A DNA stretch of 5,742 nt. Origin: a virus (lineage: Duplodnaviria; Heunggongvirae; Uroviricota; Caudoviricetes). The stretch lies in the IMG/VR virus record IMGVR_UViG_2663762627_000004, one strand, 5' to 3'. Position numbers and translations under genes: made by a program. Of this stretch, positions 1 to 5,742 are shown one piece after another (the first letter of the stretch is position 1; each line of letters begins with the position of its first letter). A model generated the notes under the pieces. That model was given only the letters and a program-made list of their open reading frames with translations, was not told the DNA's origin and searched no databases.

Positions 1-249
1 CTGGCATCAACAGGAAGTACAGGCGACTCGTATGACAACGCGATGGCGGAGAGCATCAATGGTCTTTACAAAGCGGAGGTAATACACCGTAAGAGCTGGA
101 AAAACCGTGCAGAAGTGGAACTGGCCACACTCACGTGGGTGGACTGGTATAACAATCGACGATTGCTGGAAAGGCTGGGCCATACTCCTCCGGCAGAAGC
201 AGAAAAAGCTTATTATGCTTCCATCGGAAACGATGATCTGGCAGCCTGA
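1..249 (+). CDS. IS3-family transposase OrfB (DDE integrase-like), C-terminal fragment; 5' end lies outside the window
   Basis: Open frame from base 1 to TGA at 247-249, in the same frame as the listed 43..249 ORF. The YDNAMAES...INGLYKAE...WVDWYNNRRL motif block is typical of IS3-family OrfB C-termini. Confidence 0.8.
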   Translation: MASTGSTGDSYDNAMAESINGLYKAEVIHRKSWKNRAEVELATLTWVDWYNNRRLLERLGHTPPAEAEKAYYASIGNDDLAA

Positions 250-291
250 GTTCACAGATAAAACACTCTCCAGGAAACCCGGGGCGGTTCA
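1..291 (+). mobile_element. 3' part of an IS3-family insertion sequence (IS51/IS6110-like subgroup) including its right terminal inverted repeat; the element continues upstream of the window
   Basis: Frame-1 translation from position 1 is a transposase OrfB C-terminus (GDSYDNAMAESINGLYKAEVIH...WVDWYNNRRL), stop at 247-249. The stretch 264-291 (CACTCTCCAGGAAACCCGGGGCGGTTCA) ends in CCGGGGCGGTTCA, the reverse complement of the TGAACCGCCCCGG-type terminal repeat I recall for IS6110-like elements. Exact IS name not determined. Confidence 0.6.
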
Positions 292-785
292 CAATAGGTG
301 CAATATTTTTCGATCCGCAAACCGGAGATATGGGACCGGAATTTAGTAAGACTATCGATCTGGAAACTGCTGGCGGAGTCATTGATCGGGACACCATTAA
401 ATGGTGGCTTAAGCAATCACGCGAAGCGCAATCTGCCATTATGACCGATGAAATCCCGTTAGATGATGCACTGTTACAATTGCGAGAATTTATCGACGAA
501 AACTCCGGTGAATTTTTTGTTCAGGTTTGGGGAAATGGAGCCAACTTCGACAACACGATTTTGCGCCGTTCATACGAACGGCAGGGGATCCCCTGCCCGT
601 GGCGTTACTACAACGATCGCGATGTACGCACAATCGTTGAGCTGGGGAAAGCCATAGACTTCGATGCCAGAACGGCTATTCCATTCGAAGGTGAGCGCCA
701 TAATGCACTTGATGACGCCCGTTACCAGGCAAAATACGTTTCAGTTATCTGGCAAAAACTGATCCCGAGTCAGGCTGATTCTTAA
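292..785 (+). pseudogene. DnaQ-like (DEDDh) 3'-5' exonuclease of phage origin, 5'-truncated by the IS insertion
   Basis: The listed ORF 330..785 carries an Exo II-like motif (WGNGANFD) and an Exo III-like motif (HNALDDARYQAKY). The same frame stays open upstream to the IS end and encodes IGAIFFDPQTGD, which resembles the strand that normally follows the Exo I motif, so the Exo I D-x-E residues and the native start appear to be missing. The ATG at 330 has GGAG only 2 nt upstream, a poor spacing for a start. Confidence 0.5.
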
Positions 786-857: not shown

Positions 858-1109
858 ATGAGCGAAGTAATCATGATTGTCTCTCCCGGCAAATGGGTAT
901 CCGAAGAGCAGTTAATTGCGCTGAAAGGAATAAAAAAAGGTACGTTAAAAAAGGCCCGGGAAAAATCGTTTATGGAAGGAAGGGAATATAAGCATGTCGC
1001 TCATGACGGTATGCCATGGGATAACAGTCCATGCTTTTACAACCTGGAAGAAATTGATCGCTGGATTGAGCGCCAGGCATCAGCGAGACCAAGACGTCAT
1101 CTTACTTGA
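858..1109 (+). CDS. xis: Putative excisionase (Xis-like small DNA-binding protein)
   Basis: 83-aa ORF immediately upstream of and co-oriented with the integrase (stop at 1107-1109, 34 nt before the integrase start). It contains a GREY motif (FMEGREYKH), as in the wing of lambda Xis, and is basic. The start is ambiguous: ATG at 858 or ATG at 873, both with weak ribosome-binding sites. Confidence 0.55.
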   Translation: MSEVIMIVSPGKWVSEEQLIALKGIKKGTLKKAREKSFMEGREYKHVAHDGMPWDNSPCFYNLEEIDRWIERQASARPRRHLT

Positions 1110-1143
1110 CTAAAAGCCACACTAACTAATGAGAGAAGTTGAA

Positions 1144-2424
1144 ATGAAATATCCGACAGGCGTGGAAAACCATGGAGGGAAATTACGTATCTGGTTTGTT
1201 TATAAAGACGTAAGAGTCAGGGAAAATCTGGGGGTTCCTGACACAGCAAAAAACAGGCGCGTTGCAGGTGAACTACGCTCCTCTGTTTGTTACGCAATAA
1301 AAACTGGTGTTTTCGACTATGCAAAACAGTTTCCCTCCTCACGCAATCTGGAAAAATTTGGTGAGGCCCGACAAGATTTAACCATAAAAGAACTGGCTGA
1401 AAAATTTCTGGCACTGAAAGAAACTGAAGTCGCCAAAACATCACTCAACACATACCGTGCCGTCATCAAAAATATCCTGAGCATAATCGGTGAAAAAAAT
1501 CTTGCCTCATCGATTAATAAAGAAAAATTACTGGAGGTTCGTAAAGAGTTACTGACTGGATACCAGATCCCCAAAAGTAACTATATTGTTACACAACCAG
1601 GGAGATCGGCTGTAACTGTAAATAATTACATGACAAATCTTAACGCCGTGTTCCAGTTTGGTGTTGATAACGGTTACCTGGCAGATAATCCGTTTAAGGG
1701 GATCTCGCCATTAAAGGAATCAAGAACCATTCCGGATCCTCTTTCGCGGGAAGAATTTATCCGTCTTATCGATGCGTGCAGAAATCAGCAAGCAAAAAAT
1801 TTATGGTGTGTTTCTGTTTATACTGGAGTTCGCCCTGGTGAGCTGTGTGCACTTGGATGGGAGGACATAGATCTGAAAAATGGAACAATGATGATCAGGA
1901 GAAATTTAGCAAAAGACCGTTTCACGGTACCAAAAACACAGGCGGGAACCAATCGGGTCATTCATCTTATTAAGCCAGCAATCGACGCTCTCCGGAGTCA
2001 GATGACATTAACGAGACTGAGCAAAGAGCATATCATTGATGTTCACCTCAGAGAGTATGGCAGAACAGAAAAACAAAAATGCACCTTTGTTTTTCAACCT
2101 GAAGTGTCAGCGAGAGTAAAAAATTATGGTGACCATTTTACCGTTGACTCAATAAGGCAGATGTGGGACGCAGCGATAAAACGTGCCGGACTCCGCCATC
2201 GAAAATCATATCAGTCGAGACATACTTATGCCTGCTGGTCGCTGACAGCTGGTGCTAACCCGGCATTTATAGCAAACCAGATGGGCCATGCAGATGCGCA
2301 AATGGTATTTCAGGTATACGGAAAATGGATGTCTGAAAACAATAATGCACAGGTAGCTTTGTTAAATACACAGTTAAGCGAGTTTGCCCCAACCATGCCC
2401 CATAACGAAGCAATGAAAAATTAA
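1144..2424 (+). CDS. intQ: Phage integrase, tyrosine recombinase family; apparently full length
   Basis: Long ORF ending at TAA 2422-2424. Catalytic-region motifs are present: TGVRPGEL (box I Arg), SRHTYA (H-x-x-R region) and MGHADAQMVFQVYGKW (C-terminal catalytic Tyr). Start chosen at ATG 1144 (MKYPTGVENHGG), which has GAGAGAAG 5-12 nt upstream; the in-frame ATG at 1129 has no ribosome-binding site. The symbol is by position next to rspB, as I recall for the K-12 Qin prophage, and is not sequence-verified. Confidence 0.88.
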   Translation: MKYPTGVENHGGKLRIWFVYKDVRVRENLGVPDTAKNRRVAGELRSSVCYAIKTGVFDYAKQFPSSRNLEKFGEARQDLTIKELAEKFLALKETEVAKTSLNTYRAVIKNILSIIGEKNLASSINKEKLLEVRKELLTGYQIPKSNYIVTQPGRSAVTVNNYMTNLNAVFQFGVDNGYLADNPFKGISPLKESRTIPDPLSREEFIRLIDACRNQQAKNLWCVSVYTGVRPGELCALGWEDIDLKNGTMMIRRNLAKDRFTVPKTQAGTNRVIHLIKPAIDALRSQMTLTRLSKEHIIDVHLREYGRTEKQKCTFVFQPEVSARVKNYGDHFTVDSIRQMWDAAIKRAGLRHRKSYQSRHTYACWSLTAGANPAFIANQMGHADAQMVFQVYGKWMSENNNAQVALLNTQLSEFAPTMPHNEAMKN

Positions 2425-5523: not shown

Positions 5524-5667
5524 ATGAAAATCACTCTCAGCAAACGAATCGGCCTGCTCGCTTTTCTGCTGCCTTGCGCACTGGCATTGAGCACAACTGT
5601 TCATGCCGAAACTAACAAACTGGTGATTGAGTCTGGCGACAGNNCANNNANCCNNCAGNNCNCNGCN
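5524..5667 (+). CDS. ynfB: Secreted small protein YnfB (UPF0482 family), 5' portion only; frame runs into ambiguous bases
   Basis: ATG at 5524 with a good ribosome-binding site. The product [28 protein letters not shown]|[11 protein letters not shown] has a classic signal peptide. Codons through the N cluster (AGN NCA NNN ANC CNN CAG NNC NCN GCN) are compatible with SAQSRQHAA, the continuation I recall for YnfB. Sequence after 5667 does not continue the remembered YnfB sequence in any forward frame. Confidence 0.65.
5643..5667. other. Cluster of 13 ambiguous (N) bases interleaved with called bases
   Basis: Read directly from the sequence; this is the only place in the window with N characters. 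Confidence 0.95.
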
Positions 5668-5742
5668 CACTGCCTGTACCGGTTCGCTGCCCGCTGTCGG
5701 TTATCAGGATCTGTACGTTATGGCGTGCGGCACCGTCCAGCA

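What the first reader, a model, noticed from the sequence alone, without database searches (positions are those of the whole stretch)
292..785. Phage DEDDh 3'-5' exonuclease gene missing its Exo I motif
The remnant keeps Exo II-like (GNGANFD) and Exo III-like (H-x-A-x-x-D...Y) motifs, but the reading frame runs straight into the IS boundary with no in-frame stop and no credible start site; the segment expected to carry the catalytic D-x-E motif is missing. The IDLET sequence at residues 10-14 of the ATG-330 product is probably not the true Exo I, because it follows rather than precedes the IGAIFFD strand. Stand-alone DnaQ-like exonucleases next to xis-int are common but poorly characterised phage accessory genes; this copy is probably inactive.
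Basis: partly seen in the sequence, partly recalled or inferred. Interest (0 to 1): 0.4.

Follow-up and report, generated by a model that had tools for sequence, protein, structure and literature searches.

The report
IS-truncated prophage exonuclease pseudogene remnant
This is the dead tail end (last 163 of 823 codons) of a very common E. coli prophage exonuclease gene, cut off by an insertion sequence so that two of its catalytic residues are gone; it is an ordinary pseudogene.

Summary
Window 292-785 (+) is the 3' end of a Qin-type prophage exonuclease gene. It abuts the last base (291) of an IS629/IS1203-type IS3-family element. It matches Pfam PF16473 (Rv2179c-like DEDDh 3'-5' exonuclease) from profile position 21 of 177 onward (E 6e-57). 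It keeps Exo II (GNGANFD) and Exo III (HNALDD).

In intact copies the true Exo I, LMIDLET, starts 17 codons upstream of IGAIFFD. It aligns with FIIDFET of T4 DexA (PDB 8KEL). That segment is absent here. The downstream IDLET lies on strand beta3, at a position that reads VSLE/VNLE/VTLK in homologues, so it is not Exo I.

It is an 823-aa protein (K-12 ydfE is its N-terminal remnant) with the DEDDh domain at the C-terminus. About 80% of the gene is missing beside the IS, not about 20 residues.

No promoter-like site was found. The first start codon, ATG-330, has a GGAG only 2 nt upstream. Its product would lack strands beta1 and beta2. RefSeq already annotates equivalent IS-disrupted copies as pseudogenes, so this is ordinary and already known.

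The parts
1..291 (+). Right end of an IS629/IS1203-type IS3-family insertion sequence. It holds the C-terminus of transposase orfB (stop TGA at 247-249) and the terminal inverted repeat, which ends ...GGTTCA at 291.
   Evidence: Pfam rve_3/rve_2 on the 1-246 translation. It is 100% identical to the IS3-family element in AH21 and Z1323HEC0011. The same terminus is found at junctions in L001, L002 and L004. PGAP names the copies in enterohaemorrhagic E. coli strains 'IS3-like element IS1203 family transposase'.
292..785 (+). 3' remnant of the Qin-type prophage exonuclease gene (YdfE-family, 823 aa when intact). Codons 661-823 lie at 294-782 and the stop at 783-785. It covers most of the C-terminal DEDDh domain but lacks Exo I.
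   Evidence: PF16473 at E 6e-57, profile positions 21-177 of 177. phrog_2082 positions 661-822 of 823. 100% identical to nt 1979-2472 of the phage PhiR42_1 gene.
330..785 (+). Mechanical ORF from the first in-frame ATG (151 aa). Gene callers report it in many assemblies. It would begin at strand beta3 of the fold.
   Evidence: ORF list. The exact 151-aa product is called in 150 blocks of public assemblies, always beside a disrupted upstream part or an assembly gap. The secondary structure of the intact domain model places MGPEFSKTID on beta3. GGAG at 324-327 leaves only a 2-nt spacer to the ATG (sequence).
549..551 (+). Exo II aspartate codon (D746 of the intact protein, in GNGANFD).
   Evidence: Aligned with DexA D119 (residue list in PMC12153337). 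Invariant in alignment A3. Numbering.
699..716 (+). Exo III motif HNALDD. His796 is at 699-701 and Asp801 at 714-716, giving H-x4-D as in DnaQ H162/D167 and DexA H186/D191.
   Evidence: H and D are invariant in A3. The H-x4-D spacing matches the residues listed in PMC12153337. Pfam RNase_T matches residues 644-807 of the intact protein.
858..1109 (+). Excisionase gene (context), immediately downstream of the remnant.
   Evidence: PF06806 DUF1233 putative excisionase, E 1.6e-31. Annotated as excisionase family protein in L001 and L002.
1129..2424 (+). Tyrosine integrase gene (context). It is followed by chromosomal rspB, so this is the int end of a Qin-type prophage.
   Evidence: Pfam Arm-DNA-bind_2 plus Phage_integrase. 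Same order as K-12 ydfE-IS2-intQ-rspB and as L001 and L002.

Best explanation
Window 292-785 is a non-functional 3' fragment of the early-operon exonuclease gene of a Qin-type lambdoid prophage integrated next to rspB.

The intact gene encodes an 823-aa protein. Its parts are an N-terminal YdfE_N/YdfE_C region, an acidic linker with a CxxC...CxxC element, and a C-terminal DEDDh (DexA/Rv2179c-like) 3'-5' exonuclease domain.

An IS629/IS1203-type IS3-family element now sits with its right terminus directly against codon 660/661. This may be a simple insertion or an insertion followed by deletion. Either way the upstream 1,978 nt are no longer contiguous. That lost stretch includes the promoter-proximal part, the start codon and the Exo I motif (D646, E648 in LMIDLET).

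Shown here:
- the junction;
- the identity of the remnant;
- the position of the true Exo I;
- the loss of strand beta1 and the first three residues of beta2.

Inferred:
- With two of the four metal-binding carboxylates and one or two core strands missing, and with no promoter or usable ribosome-binding site, any product is catalytically dead and probably unfolded.
- The IS also uncouples xis-int from the upstream dicB-type early operon.
For: - Family and truncation point: Pfam match begins at profile position 21 of 177.
- Intact gene: the 823-aa homologue is 100% identical over the retained 163 aa, with LMIDLETMGKNPDAPIIS immediately upstream of IGAIFFD.
- Architecture: PF16473 lies at residues 642-813 of 823. 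phrog_2082 covers 1-822 of 823. YdfE_N/YdfE_C labels appear on the upstream part.
- K-12 link: K-12 ydfE equals residues 1-256 at 100% identity, at the same locus.
- Exo I assignment: phmmer alignment to T4 DexA 8KEL puts MIDLET on FIIDFET (D7/E9) and GNGANFD on D119. DexA and epsilon catalytic residues are listed in PMC12153337.
- Conservation: MIDLET is conserved in 19 of 19 homologues that cover it, and stand-alone forms start there.
- Fold: the AlphaFold model of the intact domain (pLDDT 81) has beta1 = HLMIDLET and beta2 = IISIGAIFFD. Best Foldseek hits are DexA, RNase T and Orn.
- Expression: no sigma-70-like promoter in 1-1200. In-frame stop at 234-236 and no start before ATG-330.
- Existing annotation: equivalent IS-disrupted copies in closed genomes are annotated as pseudogenes missing the N-terminus.
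Against: - The left side of the IS is outside the window, so I cannot say whether the N-terminal 80% survives on the other side (as in AH21 and AUSMDU00014361) or was deleted (as in Z1323HEC0011).
- This exact junction was not found in 5,426 complete E. coli genomes, JGI metagenome contigs or GTDB representative genomes.
- The source assembly is demonstrably chimeric at its other end.
- Inactivity is inferred from missing residues and strands. It was not measured.
- Read-through transcription from the IS transposase gene cannot be excluded.
Confidence: 0.94

Rival explanations
1. The gene is intact. It starts at ATG-330 and uses the IDLET at residues 10-14 as its Exo I motif.
For: An ATG with a nearby GGAG exists. 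Gene callers do report this 151-aa ORF in many assemblies. The local sequence IDLET mimics D-x-E.
Against: - The Pfam profile match starts at position 21, so the N-terminal strand is missing.
- All stand-alone homologues start at M(NNL)MIDLET, 29 residues upstream of the Met-330 equivalent.
- The second IDLE column is not conserved (VSLE/VNLE/VTLK) and lies at the end of beta3.
- DexA aligns KFDLKS there, not its catalytic residues.
- In eight of the ten loci retrieved, the 151-aa ORF sits directly downstream of a disrupted upstream part of the same gene. Of the other two, L010 has an IS fragment on the left, and in L016 a scaffold gap lies between an N-terminal stretch of the gene and the ORF.
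Confidence: 0.01
2. The IS-exonuclease junction is an assembly artefact, and the exonuclease gene is intact in the real genome.
For: The window's 3' end joins ynfB to F-plasmid traI after an N-riddled stretch. The exact junction is absent from the collections scanned.
Against: - The break falls exactly at the terminal nucleotide of the IS inverted repeat (...GGTTCA). This is the signature of transposition, not of random concatenation.
- The sequence around the junction is clean.
- Closed genomes show real IS629/IS1203 junctions in the same gene 7, 313 and 932 nt away.
- Even if an assembler attached the wrong IS copy, an IS-end/flank join still implies an IS at this site.
Confidence: 0.04
3. 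The truncated C-terminal fragment is retained because it has a non-catalytic function, for example nucleic-acid binding or dominant-negative interference with intact paralogues from other prophages.
For: - The remnant is 100% identical to intact copies, with no decay.
- E. coli genomes carry a median of 2 and up to 10 matches to this gene, so partners could exist.
- In-frame deletion proteins lacking Exo I also occur (P0037, P0051, P0065).
Against: - Lack of decay is equally explained by a recent event.
- No promoter-like site was found and the ribosome-binding-site spacing is poor.
- One or two core strands of the sheet are missing, so stable folding is doubtful.
- The in-frame variants are an ascertainment effect of searching a protein database.
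Confidence: 0.02

Closest known systems
E. coli K-12 Qin cryptic prophage pseudogene ydfE (b1577), truncated by IS2E next to intQ/rspB
   Same: It is the same gene at the same chromosomal locus. ydfE residues 1-256 are 100% identical to the 823-aa intact protein. The order is dicB-ydfD-ydfE-IS-int-rspB. Both copies are IS-generated pseudogenes.
   Different: K-12 keeps the N-terminal fragment, has lost xis and has a damaged intQ. The disruptor is IS2. The window keeps the C-terminal fragment with intact xis and int, and the disruptor is an IS629/IS1203-type element.
Intact 823-aa prophage 'exonuclease' (phrog_2082; for example phage PhiR42_1 XSB42569.1; PGAP 'exonuclease' / '3'-5' exonuclease')
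   Same: The remnant is identical over residues 661-823, with the same downstream xis-int. The gene matches in 4,800 of 5,426 complete E. coli genomes, and 3,537 hold at least 80% of it in one place.
   Different: The window lacks residues 1-660: YdfE_N/YdfE_C, the linker, the Zn-ribbon-like CxxC...CxxC element and Exo I.
Bacteriophage T4 DexA (PDB 8KEL/8KEN) and the E. coli DexA-like 'EcD' (HREX, hmC-recognizing exonuclease) anti-T4 nuclease (PMC12153337)
   Same: Same DEDDh sub-family. phmmer gives E 6e-8 and Foldseek gives E 3e-10 with TM about 0.65 for the intact domain. Exo I, II and III motifs correspond. EcD, like the other stand-alone forms, starts at M-I-D-x-E-T (primer sequence).
   Different: DexA and EcD are stand-alone and catalytically complete. 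The window copy lacks the D7/E9 equivalents. The DexA W152 equivalent, reported as needed for 5hmC DNA recognition, is Tyr here (RYYNDRD). No anti-phage role was tested for this family.
Rv2179c-like 3'-5' exoribonuclease family (Pfam PF16473) within the DnaQ/RNase T DEDDh superfamily
   Same: Strong profile match. H-x4-D Exo III marks the DEDDh subclass.
   Different: Only profile positions 21-177 are present. The substrate (RNA or DNA) is unknown for the prophage protein.
RecE / exodeoxyribonuclease VIII (Rac prophage)
   Same: Several phage records name the 823-aa protein 'exodeoxyribonuclease VIII'. Its middle region matches recE DNA at 86-91% identity over nt 1423-1867, and matches phrog_412 and phrog_607. 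It holds a comparable position in the early operon next to xis-int.
   Different: At E<=0.1 the only Pfam matches on the intact protein are the two DEDDh-type families, Rv2179c-like and RNase_T. The catalytic module and polarity therefore differ, and the name is a transferred annotation.

Membership tests
DEDDh (DnaQ-like) 3'-5' exonuclease, Pfam PF16473 Rv2179c-like | Significant match to the family profile | tested here: met
   E 6.2e-57, 192.6 bits against a cutoff of 27; profile positions 21-177 of 177.
DEDDh (DnaQ-like) 3'-5' exonuclease, Pfam PF16473 Rv2179c-like | Exo I motif D-x-E on strand beta1 (two metal-binding carboxylates) | tested here: not met
   The motif is absent. In intact copies LMIDLET (D646, E648) starts 17 codons upstream of the first retained codon. 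The downstream IDLET is at a non-conserved position on beta3.
DEDDh (DnaQ-like) 3'-5' exonuclease, Pfam PF16473 Rv2179c-like | Exo II aspartate | tested here: met
   GNGANFD: the D at window 549-551 is aligned to DexA D119 and is invariant in A3.
DEDDh (DnaQ-like) 3'-5' exonuclease, Pfam PF16473 Rv2179c-like | Exo III H-x4-D (the 'h' subclass) | tested here: met
   HNALDD at window 699-716. H and D are invariant in A3. The spacing is as in epsilon H162/D167 and DexA H186/D191.
DEDDh (DnaQ-like) 3'-5' exonuclease, Pfam PF16473 Rv2179c-like | Complete alpha/beta fold with a five-stranded core sheet | tested here: not met
   The model of the intact domain shows beta1 at residues 32-39 and beta2 at 48-57 of P0002. 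The remnant starts at residue 51 and the ATG-330 product at residue 63. The intact model matches DexA, RNase T and Orn.
DEDDh (DnaQ-like) 3'-5' exonuclease, Pfam PF16473 Rv2179c-like | Mg-dependent 3'-5' exonuclease activity | not testable with these tools
   Requires biochemistry.
YdfE-family 823-aa Qin-type prophage exonuclease (phrog_2082) | Colinear full-length match (YdfE_N, YdfE_C, linker, DEDDh domain) | tested here: not met
   Only profile positions 661-822 of 823 are matched, and only nt 1979-2472 of 2472 are present.
YdfE-family 823-aa Qin-type prophage exonuclease (phrog_2082) | Orthology of the retained part and synteny (exo-xis-int next to rspB) | tested here: met
   100% identity to PhiR42_1 over the retained part. 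xis-int-rspB-rspA-ynfA order as in K-12 Qin, L001 and L002.
RecE / exonuclease VIII | RecE-type C-terminal nuclease domain | tested here: not met
   Pfam scan of the intact 823-aa protein at E<=0.1 returns only Rv2179c-like and RNase_T.
IS3 family, IS629/IS1203 group (the disrupting element) | DDE transposase orfB (rve) and terminal inverted repeat ending 5'-TG...CA-3' | tested here: met
   rve_3/rve_2 on the 1-246 translation. The terminus ...CCCGGGGCGGTTCA is the reverse complement of the TGAACCGCCCCGG left end seen in L001, L002 and L004. PGAP uses the IS1203 label for copies in enterohaemorrhagic E. coli strains.
IS3 family, IS629/IS1203 group (the disrupting element) | 3-4 bp target-site duplication flanking a simple insertion | not testable with these tools
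   The left end of the IS is outside the window. Relatives show TSD (target-site duplication) CAC in AH21 and ATC in AUSMDU00014361, and none in Z1323HEC0011. A 3-4 bp TSD is reported for IS629 (PMC3271280).
HREX / EcD-type DexA-like anti-phage nuclease (PMC12153337) | All catalytic residues conserved, plus the Trp (DexA W152) and Asp (D169) used for 5hmC recognition | tested here: not met
   The D7/E9 equivalents are absent. The W152 equivalent is Tyr. The D169 equivalent was not aligned.

The most novel reading that the evidence does not exclude
This exonuclease gene is knocked out independently many times in E. coli. The disruptions seen are:
- IS2 in K-12;
- IS629/IS1203-type elements at five or more positions;
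- IS66;
- a nonsense mutation and two different 1-nt deletions within GGGAAAAAATCC just after Exo I;
- in-frame internal deletions.

The novel reading is that this reflects selection rather than neutral prophage decay. The active DexA-like nuclease might be costly to lysogens. Alternatively it might be an HREX-like anti-phage or superinfection-exclusion nuclease whose loss or retention tracks phage pressure. The window would then be one instance of an adaptive loss.
Probability: 0.05. Interest if true: 0.4.

Novelty: already known. Interest (0 to 1): 0.08.

Why it matters
It matters little beyond correct annotation.

- The 151-aa ORF that gene callers report here and in many other assemblies should be flagged as a pseudogene fragment of the ydfE-family prophage exonuclease. 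It should not be counted as a stand-alone 3'-5' exonuclease.
- The IS probably also disconnects xis-int from the prophage early operon. This is one more step in the domestication of a Qin-type prophage.
- The intact 823-aa protein is ubiquitous in E. coli prophages and is often mislabelled 'exonuclease VIII'. It is related to the recently described DexA/EcD nucleases, and its function is more interesting than this dead copy.

Tried and rejected
- DLP12 exoD (K-12 b0539) as the homologue: BLASTP shows no similarity. Rejected.
- Finding the source contig or the same junction, to see the left side of the IS. I tried a megablast of the junction against 5,426 complete E. coli genomes, exact-pattern scans of JGI metagenome contigs and GTDB representative genomes, and a look-up of contigs encoding the exact 151-aa ORF. 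None has this junction. L016, which looked promising, holds a scaffold gap there.
- 'Nested one-sided deletions from a fixed IS'. This was suggested by the window, L001 and L002 all reading GGTTCA|CA. It was rejected because AH21 is a simple insertion with TSD (target-site duplication) CAC and its left flank differs from that of Z1323HEC0011.
- An IS 'hot spot' at nt 1959-1997 of the gene (L010, L004, window, L011), and the clustered point disruptions. I do not claim either. Those loci were retrieved by asking for the exact 151-aa ORF, which can only be called when the disruption lies between codons 650 and 673.
- The sequence of EcD (HAK9828821.1) could not be retrieved. Only its primers were available, so identity to this subfamily was not measured.
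- The papers found by searching for Rv2179c and for ydfE with Qin prophage were not opened. Their titles and abstracts suggested nothing on this gene's function.

Full report
**Observation.**
The window is E. coli chromosome. Its layout is:

- 1-291: right end of an IS3-family element. The orfB C-terminus has rve_3/rve_2 domains, the stop is at 247-249, and the inverted repeat ends ...CCCGGGGCGGTTCA at 291.
- 292-785 (+): the exonuclease reading frame.
- 858-1109: an excisionase gene (DUF1233).
- 1129-2424: a tyrosine integrase gene.
- Beyond that: rspB, rspA, ynfA and ynfB.

The 294-785 translation reads IGAIFFDPQTGDMGPEFSKTIDLET...GNGANFD...HNALDDARYQAKY...*. It matches Pfam PF16473 (Rv2179c-like 3'-5' exoribonuclease domain) at E 6e-57. 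The match covers only profile positions 21-177 of 177.

The frame stays open upstream into the IS as far as a TGA at 234-236. There is no ATG/GTG/TTG before ATG-330.

**What the intact gene looks like.**
Megablast against complete E. coli genomes found the same IS and the same exonuclease-xis-int-rspB locus at 100% identity. In those genomes the IS abuts the exonuclease gene further upstream: 932 nt in strain AH21 and 313 nt in Z1323HEC0011.

Reading upstream in AH21 gives ...TSRTCDHLMIDLETMGKNPDAPIIS|IGAIFFD....

A tblastn against phage genomes found the uninterrupted gene in phage PhiR42_1, from E. coli strain ECOR13. It is 2,472 nt and encodes 823 aa. It lies between a ydfD-family gene and xis-int.

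- The window's 494 nt are identical to nt 1979-2472 of that gene.
- In the intact protein the DEDDh domain occupies residues 642-813.
- The whole protein matches phrog_2082 end to end.
- The upstream part carries the Pfam labels YdfE_N/YdfE_C in precomputed annotations.
- The K-12 Qin pseudogene ydfE equals residues 1-256 at 100% identity, at the same locus: dicB-ydfD-ydfE-IS2-intQ-rspB.

So the window holds the C-terminal 163 of 823 codons. About 80% of the gene is missing beside the IS, not a short N-terminal segment.

**Which motif is Exo I.**
Catalytic positions in the intact protein (numbering) are:

| Motif | Sequence | Residues | Status in the window |
|---|---|---|---|
| Exo I | LMIDLET | D646, E648 | absent |
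| Exo II | GNGANFD | D746 | present, 549-551 |
| Exo III | HNALDD | H796, D801 | present, 699-716 |

- phmmer against PDB sequences aligns LMIDLETMG with FIIDFETMG of T4 DexA (8KEL). It also aligns GNGANFD with the DexA D119 motif.
- PMC12153337 lists the DexA catalytic residues as D7, a glutamate printed as E12, D119, H186 and D191. In the alignment the Exo I glutamate of FIIDFET is residue 9, so I take E12 to be a misprint for E9. The epsilon equivalents listed are D12, E14, D103, H162 and D167.
- In an alignment of 20 sequences, M(I/V)D(L/V)E(T/S) is present in every homologue that covers it. Stand-alone 180-190-aa forms start right at or four residues before it.
- The window's downstream TIDLE aligns with VSLE/VNLE/VTLK/ISLT in homologues and with KFDLK in DexA. 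It is not conserved.
- An AlphaFold model of the intact domain (mean pLDDT 81) places HLMIDLET on beta1, IISIGAIFFD on beta2 and MGPEFSKTID on beta3. Its best Foldseek hits are DexA, RNase T and oligoribonucleases.

The remnant therefore lacks beta1, the start of beta2 and two of the four metal-binding carboxylates. The ATG-330 product would lack beta1 and beta2 entirely.

The stated refutation condition is not met.

**Expression.**
- No sigma-70-like promoter was found on either strand of 1-1200.
- The only start codon, ATG-330, has GGAG at 324-327, a 2-nt spacer.
- The transposase orfB stops at 249 in a different frame.
- Read-through transcription from the IS cannot be excluded. A functional enzyme is not expected (inference).

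In the intact prophage the gene order and strand are shared: dicA-type repressor, ydfABC, dicB, ydfD, exonuclease, xis, int. The IS therefore probably also uncouples xis-int from the early operon. This is an inference from lambdoid phage organisation.

**Origin of the junction.**
IS junctions and other disruptions in the same gene are:

| Strain or locus | Disruption |
|---|---|
| AH21 | simple insertion, target-site duplication (TSD) CAC, exonuclease fragment on the other side |
| AUSMDU00014361 | simple IS1203 insertion 7 nt upstream of the window's junction, TSD ATC, the N-terminal 1,974 nt on the other side |
| Z1323HEC0011 | unrelated left flank, so a deletion or IS-IS recombination |
| L011 | IS66 insertion at nt 1990-1997 |
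| L010 | remnant from nt 1959 |
| K-12 | IS2 after nt 767 |
| L007, L008, L012 | one nonsense mutation and two 1-nt deletions just after Exo I |

The window starts inside the IS, so I cannot tell which case applies here.

The exact junction was not found in complete E. coli genomes, JGI metagenome contigs or GTDB representative genomes.

The window's other end is chimeric: an N-riddled stretch at 5642-5668 is followed by F-plasmid traI. I therefore considered an assembly artefact. A break exactly at the last base of the IS inverted repeat argues for a real transposition junction.

IS629 is known to sit mostly in prophages (62% of copies in O157:H7). It makes 3-4 bp duplications and has no sequence-specific target (PMC3271280).

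**Comparison with what is known.**
- The intact gene is ubiquitous. Matches occur in 4,800 of 5,426 complete E. coli genomes, and 3,537 hold at least 80% of it in one place.
- RefSeq annotates IS-disrupted copies as pseudogenes 'missing N-terminus'.
- Several phage records call the protein 'exodeoxyribonuclease VIII'. It shares a middle segment with recE. At E<=0.1 its only Pfam matches are the DEDDh families Rv2179c-like and RNase_T, and nothing of the RecE type was returned.
- A 2025 paper reports that a stand-alone E. coli DexA homologue, EcD, protects against T4 by degrading 5hmC DNA. EcD also begins M-I-D-x-E-T.
- The Qin-type domain has Tyr where DexA has W152. No such role was tested for it.

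**Verdict.**
This is an ordinary, recent (undecayed) IS-generated pseudogene of a well-represented prophage gene. It is already known in kind, and interest is low.

Noticed in passing
window 5642-5742: Interspersed Ns at 5642-5668 inside ynfB. After them the sequence is not ynfB but F-plasmid traI (98.6% identity to many plasmids). The source is a chimeric or concatenated draft assembly.
   Followed up: yes
L001 4421-4983 and 6292-7717; L002 6292-7098; L004 769-2742 and 4053-4553; L005 6079-6845; L010 9943-10456; L011 5278-7274 and 9974-10456: The same 2,472-nt exonuclease gene is disrupted independently by IS2, IS629/IS1203-type elements at several positions, and IS66. Some events are simple insertions with target-site duplications (CAC, ATC, 8 bp for IS66). 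Others have unrelated left flanks. The apparent clustering at nt 1959-1997 is an ascertainment effect of how the loci were retrieved.
   Followed up: partly
L007 ~9935-9945; L008 and L012 ~9935-9945 (gene nt ~1950-1962): Three different point disruptions fall within GGGAAAAAATCC immediately after Exo I: AAA>TAA nonsense, A6>A5, and deletion of the T. In frame, G_GGA_AAA formally fits the X_XXY_YYZ slippery-heptamer pattern. This is probably coincidence plus ascertainment bias.
   Followed up: partly
proteins P0037 (214 aa), P0051 (261 aa), P0065 (209 aa): In-frame internal deletions fuse the YdfE N-terminus (63, 132 or 95 residues) directly to the Exo-I-less C-terminal part. P0037 joins precisely at the MGPEF that is the window's ATG-330. 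P0037 is seen on 19 contigs and P0065 on 10.
   Followed up: no
L003 2954-5425 (intact gene); window 594-620 for the RYYNDRD segment: The 823-aa protein is labelled 'exodeoxyribonuclease VIII' in phage records. At E<=0.1 its only Pfam matches are the DEDDh families Rv2179c-like and RNase_T, with nothing of the RecE type. It shares only a middle segment with recE. Its DEDDh domain has Tyr at the position of DexA W152, reported as needed for 5hmC recognition. Many stand-alone enterobacterial homologues have Trp there.
   Followed up: partly
window 107-346 (+) and 131-439 (-): Mechanical ORFs of 79 and 102 aa run across the IS/exonuclease junction. They have no support and are most likely spurious.
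   Followed up: no
window ~2425-2611: The int-rspB intergenic region is the prophage/chromosome junction. K-12 annotates the small gene ynfP on the minus strand here (L005 8729-8839), and a 36-aa ORF is called at the equivalent place in several loci. It was not examined in the window.
   Followed up: no
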